Source of the DNA: a virus
IMG/VR virus record: IMGVR_UViG_2582581241_000004
Direction: 5' to 3' (one strand)
DNA: 64,000 bases
Part shown: piece by piece, positions 10,496-33,951 of the stretch
Layout of the letters: the number at the start of each line of letters is the position of its first letter
Position numbering within the stretch: position 1 is the first letter of the stretch
Position numbers and translations under genes: made by a program
Notes under the pieces: generated by a model
Databases searched by the model: none
What the model saw: only the letters and a program-made list of their open reading frames with translations
Told to the model about the DNA's origin: nothing

Positions 10496-10843
10496 TCACA
10501 TCTTCAACGTCGGCGATTCCTCGCCTTCGTCTGTCATCGCCATCCGCTGCAAAGCATGCGGCGTCCCGAGCCGATACCAGCGGCTCACCGTCCTCGCGAT
10601 CCCGGCCTCCGGATCGAGCCAGAGCACGATGCTGGTGCGCGTCAGCCGGCCTTCGCGAATCCGTGGATGGCCGCTGACCACGCCGTAAAGCGAATGGGTG
10701 CCGTCTTCCGCAGGATCGCTGACGAGCAGCCAGTCGTCGATGAAGACGGCCTCCGCCAGCGCGGACTCGCCGGGACGCCAGCCGCTGCGAAGACGCTCGA
10801 CGACATCGAGGGCGTTGGCAATGCGTTCGTTAGGGTCGATCAT
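10496..10843 (-). CDS. DUF6634-like protein
   Basis: LYGVVSGHPRI..G..TRTS.V..LD....IARTVSRWYRLG motif. Confidence 0.7.
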   Translation of the reverse strand: MIDPNERIANALDVVERLRSGWRPGESALAEAVFIDDWLLVSDPAEDGTHSLYGVVSGHPRIREGRLTRTSIVLWLDPEAGIARTVSRWYRLGTPHALQRMAMTDEGEESPTLKM

Positions 10844-15868: not shown

Positions 15869-15983
15869 GTCCTCATTCCGCGCACAATTTTCAATGTCGT
15901 CAAATTATTTTTTGAAAAATTAACCAAACCTCAAAATGGATGACAAGGTTAGACCCACGTTCTCGCGACGTTCTGAGAACATG

Positions 15984-16030
15984 CCAATGTTGACACCTTG
16001 CGATGATCTTTTTTCATAAAATATGAAAAA
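15984..16030 (+). promoter_or_regulatory. TTGACA-containing motif and adjacent palindrome
   Basis: CCAATGTTGACACCTTG at 15984-16000 (recurs at 19665 and 19742); TTTTTCAT-N5-ATGAAAAA at 16010-16030. Confidence 0.55.
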
Positions 16031-16167
16031 CTAGATTGACGGACATGAGGAGCGAGCTCACATTGATATCAACGAGCGACGGAGTGCCGCCGATCCCTGG
16101 GATCGGAACCATCGGTCGGATGAACGGACGCCCGAAGGGGTGGTGTCTCCAAGGACGGGAGAAAATC

Positions 16168-16458
16168 ATGTCGAAGCTCGAAAAACTCGTCGACCGCGTT
16201 GATAACGCGAAGTCCCTGAAGGCGCTCTGCAAGGCGCTCAACGCCCTCTCGATCGAATGCGACGAGCAGGAAATCACGTTGGACGAAGCGGGAGTCGACC
16301 TCGATTATCTCCCTGCATTCGGCGACTGCGAGGACTTCCACGATCCGAAGCAGTTCATCACTTGGTCCGCGACGGAACTGCTCAACTACGACTGGAATCT
16401 CTCTCCTGGCGAGAAGTTCGCCGTCCTGCCGCGCGAGGATTTCGAACTTCGCGACTGA
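16168..16458 (+). CDS. small acidic hypothetical protein
   Basis: MSKLEK start with GGGAG RBS; Asp/Glu-rich. Confidence 0.7.
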   Translation: MSKLEKLVDRVDNAKSLKALCKALNALSIECDEQEITLDEAGVDLDYLPAFGDCEDFHDPKQFITWSATELLNYDWNLSPGEKFAVLPREDFELRD

Positions 16459-16536
16459 CGCAAGGCCGAAACCTAGGCGGCGCTGGGCGTCGCCGATGGT
16501 CGCCGGGGTGGAGCCCCGCCTGACGAAGGCCGTCAG
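16455..16536 (+). ncRNA. type II hammerhead ribozyme (intergenic)
   Basis: GGCC-GAAA-CC..GG-UC^ then stem I GC(C)GGGG/CCCCGC, CUGACGA(A), GGCC-GUCAG pairing back to CUGAC..GGCC; predicted cleavage after 16501. Confidence 0.75.
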
Positions 16537-16558
16537 AAACCGATCAAGGAGAACCCCG

Positions 16559-17065
16559 ATGAGATATTCCCCAAATCCATATCTCGTTCGTTTCGACGGT
16601 GAACACATCGTTCCGCCGGTAGAGTGGACATCCAAGCAGGCGAAGCGTCTCTATGATGCCGGAGCCGACGGCGAAACCTGCGGCTATGACGGCGACCACC
16701 ACTGGATCAACCACGCCGTCGGCGGCACGATCCGCATCGCGCTGGCTCCGACGCACCGCGCGGCCTCGAAGTTCGGGACGGATCCGAAATGCGCGGAGGC
16801 GCATGCCCGCTGGGAGATCGCCAGAATGCGCGCCGAGGCGGATCGGCTCGAACGCGAACTGAACGCCTATGGCGGCAGCGCTTTCATTGAGAAGCCCTTC
16901 CCCGTTCGGTCGCCGAAGAACGGAGCCGACGCCGAGGAATTCCTGTTCGGCCTGATGAAGTCCAAGGCGACCGACATCTTCGTGAACGGCCATCACTTCA
17001 AGCGCGATCAGGGCAACGTCTTCCACGAAGTCGTGAAATCGAAGGAGATCGCCAAGGCGGCCTGA
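16559..17065 (+). CDS. hypothetical protein
   Basis: AAGGAG RBS just after the hammerhead. Confidence 0.65.
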   Translation: MRYSPNPYLVRFDGEHIVPPVEWTSKQAKRLYDAGADGETCGYDGDHHWINHAVGGTIRIALAPTHRAASKFGTDPKCAEAHARWEIARMRAEADRLERELNAYGGSAFIEKPFPVRSPKNGADAEEFLFGLMKSKATDIFVNGHHFKRDQGNVFHEVVKSKEIAKAA

Positions 17066-17158
17066 AGAACGCGACGACGGAGCCCGCGCCGGACAATCGC
17101 GGGACAGGATTTCCACATCCAACGCGTGGTTGCAACGAGTTCACCAGGGAGAGACACG

Positions 17159-17473
17159 ATGTTCCAACTCATTGTCGCGGTCGTCTCGATCGCACTCGTC
17201 GCCGCCATAGCCGTGGCGACGCTCTACTACGGCGGATCGGCTTTTTCCGCGTCGTCCTCGAAAATCGATGTGATCGCCGAAATGCGGCGCGCCGATGAAG
17301 CCAGGATGGCTGCGGTCCTCGGCGAGCGCGAACGCCCCGCGCCCGTGCTGACGTGCCCGGCGCCGCTGCCGATCATCGAGACATCCGCATTCGCCGTAGT
17401 CGCCGAAACGTTCGCCGCCGGCGTCCTGATCGGATCGGCTGCCGCCGCTTCCATCCTTCGCCGCATCGCCTGA
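17159..17473 (+). CDS. membrane protein with pilin-like N-terminal helix
   Basis: MFQLIVAVVSIALVAAIAVATLYYGGSAF. Confidence 0.55.
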   Translation: MFQLIVAVVSIALVAAIAVATLYYGGSAFSASSSKIDVIAEMRRADEARMAAVLGERERPAPVLTCPAPLPIIETSAFAVVAETFAAGVLIGSAAAASILRRIA

Positions 17474-19284: not shown

Positions 19285-19313
19285 AAAGCCCCCGACGCCG
19301 GGGGCTTTTTTTT
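19285..19313 (+). terminator. rho-independent terminator (probably bidirectional)
   Basis: AAAGCCCCC-gacgcc-GGGGGCTTT followed by a T run, between convergent genes. Confidence 0.85.
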
Positions 19314-19602
19314 ATGCCGACTTGCGACCGTCCCTTCGTCGCTTGGCCGAGGCGATGGCCATCGCGAAGGCGTCGTCGTCGGCAGCGGCACGGGATTCGT
19401 CCTCCCGGTCGGCGGCGACAATGCGATCGAAGGCGCGCTGGGCGCGGGCTTCGAGCCGGTCGAGTTCACGAAGGGCATGGAGATCGCGAATCTCGCGCTC
19501 ATACGCCTCGCGCTGATCGCGTGCGCCGAGGGCCAAGCCCATCGCCAATCCCCAATTGTCGTTGCGTCCGCCGTTCCACATCGTGTCGTCCTCCGTCTTC
19601 AT
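19312..19602 (-). CDS. hypothetical protein
   Basis: 96-aa ORF converging on the terminator. Confidence 0.55.
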   Translation of the reverse strand: MKTEDDTMWNGGRNDNWGLAMGLALGARDQREAYEREIRDLHALRELDRLEARAQRAFDRIVAADREDESRAAADDDAFAMAIASAKRRRDGRKSA

Positions 19603-28232: not shown

Positions 28233-29438
28233 ATGATCCTCCACAGGGCGAACATCTACCGTCTCTATCCGACCGACGAGCAGGCCCAGCGCCTGACGGA
28301 GTGGGTCGGATCCTGCCGATTCATGTACAACGTCGCGCTGGAGCAAAGGCGCGACTGGTGGAGGCCGGGGCGCCGTTTCAATTTCGCCACGCAGTGCCGG
28401 GAAGTCACGGCGGTGCGTGAAGAAGTGGATTGGATCAAGGACGTTCCGGTTCATGCCCTGCAACAAGCGATGAGGGATCTCGATCGCGCCTTCGTCAATT
28501 TCTGGGAAGGGCGGGCCGAATATCCGAAGCCGCGGCGGAAATTCGAGAACGACAGCATGCGCTTTCCTGATCCGAGCGCCTTCGGATTTCGCCGCATATC
28601 GAAGCATTGGGGCGAAGTGAAACTCCCCAAGCTCGGATGGGTGAAGCTGCGTTGGGACAAGGCGATTCCTGGAACGGTGAAGAACATCACCGTCTCGTTG
28701 AAGACCGGGATTTGGACCGTCGCGGCGCAATACGAAACGGAAATCGCGGATCCGCAGCCTTCGGAATTGCCGCCGGTCGGCATCGACCGCGGAGTCGCCG
28801 TCTTCGCTGCCATGTCGGACGGGACGAAGGTCGAGCCGGGAAACTTCGGCAAGAAGGCGCGGAAGAAGCTGTGCAAGGCGCAGCGGAATCTGTCGCGGAA
28901 GAAGAAAGGATCAAACAATTGGAAAAAGCAGAAGGCGCGGGTCGGGAAGATACAGGGTAAAATAGCCCGTCAGCGCAAGGACTATCTGCATAAACTCTCC
29001 ACCGACATTGCCAAGAGCCACGGCGTCGTCGCGATGGAGAATCTGAAGGTCAGGAACATGACGGCTTCCGCCGCCGGCACCGTCGAAGAGCCGGGGAAGA
29101 ACGTCCGTCAGAAGGCGGGATTGAACCGCTCCATTCTCGATCAGGGATGGGGGATGTTCCGCACGATGCTGAACTACAAGCTGGCGGAGCGCGGGGGAAG
29201 GCTGGTGGAGGTGAATCCCGCCTTCACGAGTCAGACATGCTCCGAGTGCGGCGTCGTCGACGCGAGGAGCCGCGCCAGTCAGGCGCGTTTCGTCTGCGTC
29301 GCTTGCGGACACGAAGAAAACGCCGACGTGAATGCGGCGAAGAATATCCTAAGCCGGGCGGGCTGCTCGGTTCTGCCTGTGGAGGGACAGCGTGGTAGAC
29401 GCCCCGATGAAGCAGGAACCATCCGGAGGGCTGCGTGA
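28233..29438 (+). CDS. tnpB: TnpB RNA-guided endonuclease (IS200/IS605 family)
   Basis: N-terminal YRLYPTDEQ; RuvC GIDRG, AMENL, NADVNAAKNI; zinc finger CSECG..CVACG. Confidence 0.95.
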   Translation: MILHRANIYRLYPTDEQAQRLTEWVGSCRFMYNVALEQRRDWWRPGRRFNFATQCREVTAVREEVDWIKDVPVHALQQAMRDLDRAFVNFWEGRAEYPKPRRKFENDSMRFPDPSAFGFRRISKHWGEVKLPKLGWVKLRWDKAIPGTVKNITVSLKTGIWTVAAQYETEIADPQPSELPPVGIDRGVAVFAAMSDGTKVEPGNFGKKARKKLCKAQRNLSRKKKGSNNWKKQKARVGKIQGKIARQRKDYLHKLSTDIAKSHGVVAMENLKVRNMTASAAGTVEEPGKNVRQKAGLNRSILDQGWGMFRTMLNYKLAERGGRLVEVNPAFTSQTCSECGVVDARSRASQARFVCVACGHEENADVNAAKNILSRAGCSVLPVEGQRGRRPDEAGTIRRAA

Positions 29439-33874: not shown

Positions 33875-33951
33875 CCCGGCAATAAGACGGCTGACGATCG
33901 GCTGAGACGCCGTGAAACGCGAAAGCGTCCCGTGGAGAAGCCCCTGCCGGG
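33875..33951 (+). ncRNA. extended type I hammerhead ribozyme
   Basis: ACGG-CUGACGA-U-CGGC[UGAGAC]GCCG-U-GAAA-CGC[GAAA]GCG-UC^-CCGU; distal stem CCCGGCA/UGCCGGG; predicted cleavage after 33929. Confidence 0.85.

What the first reader, a model, noticed from the sequence alone, without database searches (positions are those of the whole stretch)
16455..16536. Type II hammerhead ribozyme inside a phage operon
The core elements are present in permuted order. Stem II is CUGAC(GCAA bulge)GGCC paired with GGCC-GUCAG. Then come GAAA, stem III (ACC/GGU with a GCGGCG/CGUCGC extension), the GUC cleavage triplet (cut after 16501), stem I with loop UGGAG, and CUGACGA with one extra A before stem II. It overlaps the stop of gene 16168-16458 and ends 10 nt before the RBS of the next gene. 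Inference: it splits the polycistronic mRNA and gives the downstream part a 5'-OH end.
Basis: partly seen in the sequence, partly recalled or inferred. Interest (0 to 1): 0.7.

Follow-up and report, generated by a model that had tools for sequence, protein, structure and literature searches.

The report
Hammerhead ribozyme between prophage genes
The flagged 68-82 bases are a genuine copy of a self-cutting "hammerhead" RNA of a kind that is common between genes of bacterial viruses, so it is a real but fairly ordinary element that probably cuts the prophage's early message in two.

Summary
Observation confirmed. Every hammerhead core element is present in type II order at 16464-16531, with predicted cleavage between C16501 and G16502.

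Rfam's Hammerhead_II model gives only 16.7 bits against a cut-off of 37, which is noise level. Both flanking genes are ORFans, so the locus has no orthologues to compare.

Pattern scans nevertheless found a large phage family sharing the candidate's non-core features:
- a 4-bp stem II;
- ACC/GGU plus a UA/GAY internal loop in stem III;
- a 6-bp stem I with a U-N-N-N-G loop;
- a position between a stop codon and the next ribosome-binding site.

The family has at least 150 copies, often in arrays. Models built only from those viral copies score the candidate at 51-58 bits (E about 1e-16 in the window, 2e-14 in its genome); the next best hit scores 16 bits. Family stems covary strongly.

The GUCAG tail instead covaries with the ribozyme's own CUGAN core, giving an alternative hairpin.

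The candidate is a fringe member: an extra A after A9, a bulged C in stem I, and a competing fold 3 kcal/mol more stable. Activity is likely but untested.

Verdict: a new member of a known kind. This scan has already found many phage type II hammerheads on other DNA.

The parts
16464..16467 (+). Stem II, 5' strand (positions 11.4-11.1, GGCC)
   Evidence: Pairs with 16528-16531. Family stem II is 4 bp in 89 of 122 copies and covaries.
16468..16471 (+). Core G12 A13 A14 A15.1 (GAAA)
   Evidence: Sequence; aligned to the invariant GAAA of models R1 and R2.
16471..16500 (+). Stem III hairpin: ACC/GGU, internal loop UA/GAU, then a 7-bp helix with loop CUGGG
   Evidence: The ACC-UAG...CGAY-GGU frame recurs in 112 IMG/VR stretches whose inner helix covaries.
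16501..16501 (+). C17; predicted cleavage between 16501 and 16502
   Evidence: Position after U16.1 in the GUC triplet. Cleavage itself was not tested.
16502..16519 (+). Stem I hairpin (6 bp with one bulged C, loop UGGAG)
   Evidence: Family stem I is paired in 99.9% of cells and closes on a G-UNNNG-C loop. Among the copies inspected (listing), only L159 shows a bulge at this place.
16520..16526 (+). Core C3 U4 G5 A6 C7 G8 A9 (CUGACGA)
16527..16527 (+). Extra A between A9 and G10.1
   Evidence: 23 of 122 family copies carry one inserted base here, mostly U. Rfam-grade type II hammerheads in L018 carry U or A here.
16528..16531 (+). Stem II, 3' strand (10.1-10.4, GGCC)
16532..16536 (+). Tail GUCAG: complementary both to the core C3-N7 (16520-24) and to the upstream CUGAC (16455-59)
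   Evidence: Tails of the form N'UCAG covary with core N7 in the family: 11 of 106 against 5.1 in shuffles, and 2 of 1000 shuffles reach that count.
16455..16459 (+). Upstream CUGAC overlapping the UGA stop of gene 16168-16458; possible extension of stem II
   Evidence: Complementarity seen. It is not a family feature.
16168..16458 (+). Upstream gene (96 aa, ORFan), first gene of the rightward operon
   Evidence: ORF list. No homologue other than itself among 5.8 billion proteins, and no Pfam or PHROG family above threshold.
16559..17065 (+). Downstream gene (168 aa, ORFan) with ribosome-binding site AAGGAG at 16546-51

Best explanation
The element at 16464-16531 is a type II hammerhead self-cleaving ribozyme. 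It lies in the early rightward operon of a myovirus-like prophage and belongs to a large phage-borne sub-family.

Shown here: the operon appears to run from an AT-rich divergent regulatory region near 15880-16060 to an intrinsic terminator near 19287-19314. The ribozyme sits between its first and second genes.

Inferred: once transcribed, the RNA folds into the three-helix junction and cuts itself between C16501 and G16502.
- The first cistron (16168-16458) is left with a 2',3'-cyclic phosphate end capped by the stem III hairpin.
- The downstream mRNA starts with a 5'-OH and the stem I hairpin, 57 nt before the ATG at 16559.
- Only the 4-bp stem II holds the two products together, so they should separate. 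The tail GUCAG can then pair with CUGAC(G) of the spent core to form a second 5' hairpin.

The likely net effect is that the stability and translation of the first small gene are uncoupled from the rest of the operon.

This copy has three oddities: an extra A after A9, a bulged C in stem I, and a competing fold 3 kcal/mol more stable. It may therefore cut more slowly or less completely than typical members.
For: - All core nucleotides and core-adjacent pairs are present in type II order.
- Covariance models built only from viral-contig copies score the candidate at 51.1 bits (R1, 6 seeds; E 5.9e-16) and 58.4 bits (R2, 150 sequences; E 2.4e-16 in the window; 1.9e-14 in the genome). The next best window hit scores 16.2 bits.
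- The family is real. 160 hits in 100 loci show 97.9% of cells paired, 18 of 20 pairs with changes on both sides, and a covariation score of 0.737 against 0.152 when shuffled and at most 0.116 when slid.
- Many contigs hold arrays, for example 8 copies in L245 and 7 in L203.
- The context matches. 90 of 106 members have a same-strand ORF ending within 45 nt upstream. 84 of 106 have a ribosome-binding site plus start codon within 90 nt downstream (median 24 nt). The candidate's values are -5 and +27.
- No intrinsic terminator-like or sigma-70-like site lies between the two genes.
- An inserted base after A9 occurs in 23 of 122 family copies and in Rfam-grade type II hammerheads.
- Published work: type II hammerheads flank genes in prophages (PMC3088659), and three type II hammerheads near phage-like genes were detected self-cleaving in total RNA from D. 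vulgaris (PMC8782182).
Against: - Rfam RF02276 gives only 16.7 bits (cut-off 37), a level reached by chance elsewhere in the genome and in control genomes.
- There is no orthologous locus: none in 100 relatives, and both flanking proteins are singletons. This copy itself therefore has no covariation support.
- The seed sequences were retrieved with patterns derived from the candidate, so part of the sequence score is circular. The hairpins and their covariation are not.
- The hammerhead fold of this copy is 3.0 kcal/mol above its minimum-energy fold. In the family 88% of members are within 0.5 kcal/mol, and only 1 of 106 is as bad.
- Stem I carries a bulge, whereas family stem I is paired in 99.9% of cells.
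- No loop I-tail pseudoknot is present.
- Cleavage has not been observed.
Confidence: 0.8

Rival explanations
1. It is a decaying, catalytically dead or very slow relic of a family hammerhead. The sequence descends from a ribozyme, but the bulged C in stem I, the extra A and the competing fold have disabled it, and the transcript stays intact.
For: The hammerhead fold lies 3.0 kcal/mol above the minimum-energy fold, worse than 99% of family members. Over 96 nt the minimum-energy fold is a different structure at -42.4 against -34.9 kcal/mol. A stem I bulge is almost absent from the family. Only one copy exists in the genome, so selection on it cannot be checked.
Against: All 13 invariant core nucleotides and all three core-adjacent pairs are intact, which is not expected after neutral decay. 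L159 combines the same three oddities (bulge after the second pair of stem I, extra A, N'UCAG tail) with different helix sequences. An inserted base after A9 is frequent in the family. Secondary-structure energies ignore the tertiary contacts that stabilise hammerheads.
Confidence: 0.15
2. It is a chance occurrence of the short hammerhead consensus in GC-rich DNA, with no relation to ribozymes.
For: Rfam scores it at noise level. A relaxed descriptor finds three other hits in this genome and 0-2 per simulated 5 Mb. The fold is no more stable than shuffled sequence (z = -0.97).
Against: Family models give E about 1e-16, with a gap of about 40 bits to the next hit. The candidate shares non-core features that the consensus does not require: the UA/GAY internal loop, G-UNNNG-C closing of stem I, a 4-bp GGCC stem II, the GUCAG tail and the stop-codon/ribosome-binding-site placement.
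Confidence: 0.01
3. It is a regulated, not constitutive, ribozyme. The GUCAG tail toggles between the catalytic core (off-state hairpin CUGACG/CGUCAG) and the upstream CUGAC that overlaps the UGA stop codon (extended stem II, on-state). Ribosomes terminating on the first gene would then decide whether the message is cut.
For: The tail-core hairpin is an enriched and covarying family feature. In this copy it is iso-energetic with the minimal hammerhead fold (-29.6 against -30.0 kcal/mol), and the upstream pairing adds about 5 kcal/mol to the active fold. The upstream partner includes the stop codon.
Against: Pairing between the upstream flank and the tail is not enriched in the family (3 of 106 against 2.7), so the upstream CUGAC may be coincidence. 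Only about 10-13% of members have the tail at all. The tail may simply trap the 3' product after cleavage. There is no experimental evidence.
Confidence: 0.1

Closest known systems
Type II hammerhead ribozymes of bacteria and prophages (Perreault et al. 2011, PMC3088659; Rfam RF02276, clan CL00010)
   Same: Same catalytic core and same permutation: stems I and III closed, stem II open. Same habitat between genes of prophages, often in arrays. The same proposed role of cutting long phage transcripts into shorter mRNAs.
   Different: The published and Rfam consensus relies on a pseudoknot of at least 4 bp between loop I and the 3' tail, with a stem II as short as 2 bp. This copy and 89 of 106 of its relatives have a short stem I with a UNNNG loop and no such pseudoknot, plus a 4-bp stem II and a conserved UA/GAY internal loop in stem III. 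RF02276 scores it at 16.7 bits. None of the copies in eight family loci reached the cut-off; the best scored 27.7 bits.
Sub-family copies found here in IMG/VR and metagenome contigs, closest L168, L162, L208 and L159
   Same: L168 shares GGCC-GAAACCUAGG...CCGAUGGUC...CUGACGA-A-GGCC-GUCAG, including the extra A and the tail. L162 shares the GGCC stem II, the extra A and a 5-nt loop I. L159 shares the stem I bulge, the extra A and an N'UCAG tail.
   Different: The helix sequences differ (covariation). None shares the flanking genes. None has the upstream CUGAC partner in the same place.
The three type II hammerheads of Desulfovibrio vulgaris detected by cyPhyRNA-seq (PMC8782182)
   Same: Bacterial type II hammerheads near hypothetical and phage-like genes; their self-cleavage was detected in total RNA from the bacterium.
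   Different: Different host. Their sequences were not compared here.
Chrysanthemum chlorotic mottle viroid (+) hammerhead with an extra nucleotide in the core (De la Pena and Flores 2001, J Biol Chem 276:34586, cited in PMC2632901)
   Same: From memory of that paper, the extra base is an A between A9 and G10.1 of a natural, active hammerhead. Only its title was checked here.
   Different: It is a type III viroid ribozyme that processes replication intermediates, not a phage mRNA element.

Membership tests
Hammerhead ribozyme (Rfam clan CL00010) | Core C3 U4 G5 A6 N7 G8 A9 | tested here: met
   CUGACGA at 16520-16526.
Hammerhead ribozyme (Rfam clan CL00010) | Core G12 A13 A14 A15.1 and U16.1 H17 | tested here: met
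   GAAA at 16468-71; U16500 and C16501.
Hammerhead ribozyme (Rfam clan CL00010) | Watson-Crick pairs next to the core (10.1-11.1, 15.1-16.1, 1.1-2.1), the acceptance rule of Perreault et al. 2011 | tested here: met
   G16528-C16467, A16471-U16500 and G16502-C16519. One extra A (16527) separates A9 from G10.1, as in 23 of 122 family copies.
Hammerhead ribozyme (Rfam clan CL00010) | Mg2+-dependent self-cleavage after H17, giving 2',3'-cyclic phosphate and 5'-OH ends | not testable with these tools
   No RNA run was listed for this DNA.
Hammerhead_II, Rfam RF02276 | Score at or above the gathering cut-off (37 bits) | tested here: not met
   16.7 bits, E 0.55 on 241 bases; no match at gathering in the whole window.
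Hammerhead_II, Rfam RF02276 | Type II topology: stems I and III closed by loops, stem II open | tested here: met
Hammerhead_II, consensus of Perreault et al. 2011 | Pseudoknot of 4 or more pairs between loop I and the bases just after stem II (present in the majority, not in all) | tested here: not met
   No 4-nt complement of loop GUGGAGC in the tail or the 5' flank. The same holds for the short-stem-I class as a whole (11 of 89 against 9.3 in shuffles).
Phage type II sub-family with the ACC-UAG...CGAY-GGU stem III (defined here) | Significant score against covariance models built without the candidate | tested here: met
   R1 51.1 bits, R2 58.4 bits; E 6e-16, 2e-16 and 1.9e-14.
Phage type II sub-family with the ACC-UAG...CGAY-GGU stem III (defined here) | Placement between the stop codon of one gene and the ribosome-binding site of the next gene on the same strand | tested here: met
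   The stop ends 5 nt before stem II and the ATG lies 27 nt after it. Family mode is 0 to +1 and median is 24 nt.
Phage type II sub-family with the ACC-UAG...CGAY-GGU stem III (defined here) | Compensatory changes at this locus itself among orthologues | tested here: inconclusive
   No orthologous locus was found. Covariation is shown only across the family.

The most novel reading that the evidence does not exclude
The GUCAG tail is a built-in switch. In about a tenth of this phage hammerhead family it pairs with the ribozyme's own C3-G8, either as an off-state or as a trap for the 3' product. In this prophage a second partner (CUGAC) overlaps the stop codon of the upstream gene. Translation termination on the first cistron would then decide whether the tail silences the core or extends stem II, which would make this a translation-coupled self-cleaving ribozyme.
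Probability: 0.1. Interest if true: 0.6.

Novelty: new member of a known kind. Interest (0 to 1): 0.3.

Why it matters
In itself it adds one more prophage hammerhead to hundreds already known.

Three side results are of some use:
1. The commonest form in the viral contigs found by these pattern scans lacks the loop I-tail pseudoknot. It has a 4-bp stem II, a G-UNNNG-C loop I and a UA/GAY internal loop in stem III. The curated Rfam model misses it almost entirely, so routine annotation undercounts phage hammerheads.
2. How this form aligns stems I and II is unknown.
3. A covarying tail-core hairpin suggests that some copies are switchable or trap their product.

This copy lies in the genome of a cultured or assembled bacterium, inside an apparently complete prophage. 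Cleavage and its effect on the early operon could therefore be tested after induction.

Tried and rejected
- Rfam at gathering threshold on the whole window: nothing. With E-value threshold: Hammerhead_II at 16.7 bits and a CRISPR-DR20 hit on the opposite strand at 18.1 bits, both noise.
- RF02276 over the whole genome: only noise-level hits, and control genomes ring too.
- BLAST of 15900-17200 against 50,697 phage records: no match.
- DNA search of 16100-16700 in 100 relatives: only 25-47-nt chance matches inside GC-rich coding sequence.
- Protein searches for both flanking genes: only themselves. Pfam and PHROGs on eight operon genes: nothing above threshold.
- RNA sequencing runs: no RNA holder was listed, so no read-end test was possible.
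- Single-sequence folding: z = -0.97, and the minimum-energy fold is not the hammerhead. This is uninformative for a tertiary-stabilised junction.
- Loop I-tail or loop I-5' flank pseudoknot for this class: rejected.
- Weak model hits elsewhere in the genome (L280-L284): not hammerheads, because the core is mutated; three of them are copies of an unrelated repeat.
- Search of held papers and of the supplements of PMC3088659 for the sub-family's signature strings: nothing relevant. This does not show that the sub-family is undescribed.
- Complex prediction, structure prediction and read laying were not used; they were not relevant or had no data.

Full report
**What is in the sequence**

- GGCC 16464-67 pairs with GGCC 16528-31 (stem II).
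- GAAA lies at 16468-71.
- Stem III is ACC 16471-73 with GGU 16498-500. It continues through an internal loop (UA / GAU) into a 7-bp helix capped by CUGGG.
- C16501 is C17.
- Stem I (16502-19) has six pairs, one bulged C and the loop UGGAG.
- CUGACGA occupies 16520-26 and is followed by one extra A (16527).
- CUGAC 16455-59, which contains the UGA stop of gene 16168-16458, is complementary to GUCAG 16532-36.
- The next gene starts at ATG 16559 (not 16560), behind AAGGAG at 16546-51.

**Is it more than chance? First tests were discouraging**

- Rfam finds nothing in the window at gathering thresholds.
- On a 241-base slice, Hammerhead_II aligns end to end but scores only 16.7 bits against a cut-off of 37. 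The same model produces hits of 15-23 bits elsewhere in this genome and rings in 11 of 14 control genomes.
- The fold is no more stable than shuffled sequence (z = -0.97), and the minimum-energy structure is not the hammerhead.
- A relaxed type II descriptor that I wrote finds four hits in the 5.1-Mb genome and 0-2 per simulated 5 Mb. Over the many windows of this scan, the bare motif is therefore not significant.
- The locus cannot be compared with orthologues. There is no match in phage records. In 100 related genomes there are only short chance matches. Both flanking proteins are singletons among 5.8 billion proteins.
- No RNA run was listed.

**The decisive evidence: a family**

I scanned public collections for the candidate's stem-proximal bases joined to the core.
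- The scans returned clean type II hammerheads that share non-core features with the candidate.
- A pattern that leaves stem II and the inserted base free (CGAAACCUAG...CGAYGGUC...CUGANGA) hit 112 stretches of IMG/VR contigs, giving 122 distinct copies.
- Nearly all copies have a perfect inner stem III helix, a 6-7-bp stem I and a 4-bp stem II of differing sequence.

I then built covariance models without the candidate.
- Model R1 came from six equal-length viral copies. It scores the candidate at 51.1 bits (E 5.9e-16 over both strands of the window, filters off); the next hit scores 13.6 bits.
- The same model found 160 copies in 100 loci, many in arrays: eight in L245, seven in L203, six in L198.
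- On the resulting alignment, 97.9% of cells are paired and 18 of 20 pairs show changes on both sides. The covariation score is 0.737, against 0.152 for shuffles and at most 0.116 for slid partners.
- Model R2, rebuilt from 150 copies, gives the candidate 58.4 bits (E 2.4e-16 in the window; 1.9e-14 in its genome). It is the only convincing copy in the genome.
- Two of 150 related genomes carry copies, one of them three within 2.2 kb. This is the patchy distribution expected of prophage cargo.

One caveat applies. The seeds were fished with patterns taken from the candidate, so the sequence part of the score is partly circular. The helices and their covariation, the loop I signature and the genomic placement were not imposed.

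**Context**

- The window is a prophage. Portal, head-tail adaptor, tail sheath, tape-measure and baseplate genes lie at 38.7-58.8 kb.
- Regulators, a GcrA-like protein, a PolB-type exonuclease, an IS605-family TnpB, an AAA ATPase and an RNA ligase lie upstream.
- The ribozyme sits after the first gene of a rightward operon. The operon starts at an AT-rich divergent region (15880-16060) and ends at a strong terminator-like hairpin with a U-run (19287-19314). No terminator-like or promoter-like site lies between the two flanking genes.
- In the family, 90 of 106 copies follow a same-strand ORF that ends within 45 nt (mode: the stop codon abuts stem II). 84 of 106 precede a ribosome-binding site plus start codon, at a median of 24 nt. 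The candidate's values are -5 and +27.

**How it most likely works**

The following steps are inferred from the established hammerhead mechanism. The RNA cuts itself after C16501.
- The 5' product ends in a 2',3'-cyclic phosphate behind the stem III hairpin.
- The 3' product begins with a 5'-OH and the stem I hairpin.
- Only four pairs hold the products together.

From general knowledge, 5'-monophosphate-dependent RNase E and RNase J attack 5'-OH ends poorly, so the downstream message may be stabilised. That step is inference. The general idea that such ribozymes cut long phage transcripts into gene-length mRNAs is that of Perreault et al. (PMC3088659). Self-cleavage of bacterial type II hammerheads near phage-like genes has been detected in total RNA from D. 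vulgaris (PMC8782182).

**Corrections and refinements**

A 5-nt complement between the 5' flank and the tail occurs in 3 of 106 copies, against 2.7 in shuffles.
2. *The tail.* UCAG occurs in 14 of 106 nine-base tails. The base before it matches core position N7 (C-G 8, U-A 5, U-G 3, A-U 1, mismatches 4). An exact 5-nt complement of C3-N7 occurs in 11 of 106 copies against 5.1 in shuffles, and only 2 of 1000 shuffles reach that count. The tail therefore pairs with the ribozyme's own core in an alternative hairpin, acting either as an off-state or as a trap for the 3' product. In the candidate, the alternative hairpin (-29.6 kcal/mol) and the minimal hammerhead (-30.0) are iso-energetic, and the upstream CUGAC would add about 5 kcal/mol to the active fold.
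3. *No pseudoknot.* The class to which the candidate belongs (stem I of 18 nt or less; 89 of 106 copies) has no loop I-tail pseudoknot above chance (11 against 9.3). The minority with a long stem I does have one (14 of 17 against 4.8). What aligns stems I and II in the short class is unknown. The conserved G-UNNNG-C loop and the UA/GAY internal loop are candidates.
4. *Rfam coverage.* Rfam's model largely misses this sub-family. None of the copies in eight family loci reaches 37 bits; the best scores 27.7. L018, with the classical UGGU/AGCCA pseudoknot, scores 42-55 bits.

**How typical is this copy?**

- The extra base after A9 is found in 23 of 122 copies, mostly as U. It also occurs in Rfam-grade copies. 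A viroid precedent exists (De la Pena and Flores 2001, cited in PMC2632901; the details are from memory).
- The bulged C in stem I is rare. Family stem I is paired in 99.9% of cells, and among the copies I inspected only L159 shows the same bulge, together with an extra A and an N'UCAG tail.
- The bulge creates a competitor fold: GGC 16464-66 with GCC 16502-04. The hammerhead fold of the 68-nt core lies 3.0 kcal/mol above the minimum. In the family 88% are within 0.5 kcal/mol and only 1 of 106 is as unfavourable.

I therefore rate family membership as near certain, and efficient self-cleavage as likely (about 0.8) but open.

**Comparison with the known, and novelty**

The element works like, and by core and topology is, a type II hammerhead. 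It fails the Rfam score threshold and lacks the consensus pseudoknot, so it belongs to a variant sub-class rather than to the curated seed type. Hammerheads between prophage genes have been known since 2011, and this scan has already reported several on other DNA (e1-3429482, e1-3443683, e1-3669149). A second hammerhead-like motif was noted on this same window near 33.9 kb (e1-5343599). The finding is a new member of a known kind. Its modest added value lies in the pseudoknot-free class, the Rfam blind spot and the tail-core hairpin.

Noticed in passing
window 33875-33929 (+): A compact type I hammerhead-like motif: ACGG / CUGACGA / U-CGGC...GCCG-U / GAAA / CGC-GAAA-GCG / UC / CCGU. It has a U-U juxtaposition at 10.1/11.1. 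Rfam gives no hammerhead hit there at E up to 1.
   Followed up: partly
L281, L282, L283 (G000:C9 near 273067, 1218014 and 798419): Three copies of a dispersed repeat ending in GGUGGCCCCGC(A/G)AAGCGGGGUCGGAUGAGGGC gave weak hits to the hammerhead model. They lack the core (CGGAUGA instead of CUGAUGA; GAAU or GACU instead of GAAA). Their nature is unknown.
   Followed up: no
L245, L203, L198, L174, L188, L186 (IMG/VR contigs): Arrays of up to eight type II hammerheads of this sub-family within 4-5 kb, one per intergenic gap. None reaches the Rfam RF02276 cut-off.
   Followed up: partly
family alignment A2; loci L171-L278: Stem III of this sub-family carries a nearly invariant asymmetric internal loop (UA opposite GAY), three pairs from the core. 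Loop I is nearly always G-U-N-N-N-G-C. Both are conserved without an obvious pairing partner.
   Followed up: partly
window 28233-29438 (+): An IS605-family TnpB (OrfB_IS605 and Cas12f1-like TNB domains) sits inside the prophage.
   Followed up: no
window 15880-16060 and 19287-19314: An AT-rich divergent regulatory region with TTGACA-like hexamers lies ahead of the ribozyme-bearing operon. A strong terminator hairpin (GCCCCCG...CGGGGGC plus eight U) lies at its end. The tool's terminator scan missed it.
   Followed up: partly
window 10688-10735 (+): A second weak RF02276 hit (17.5 bits) falls inside the window, as G000:C9:951944-951991. It was not recovered by the family models and is judged to be noise.
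   Followed up: partly
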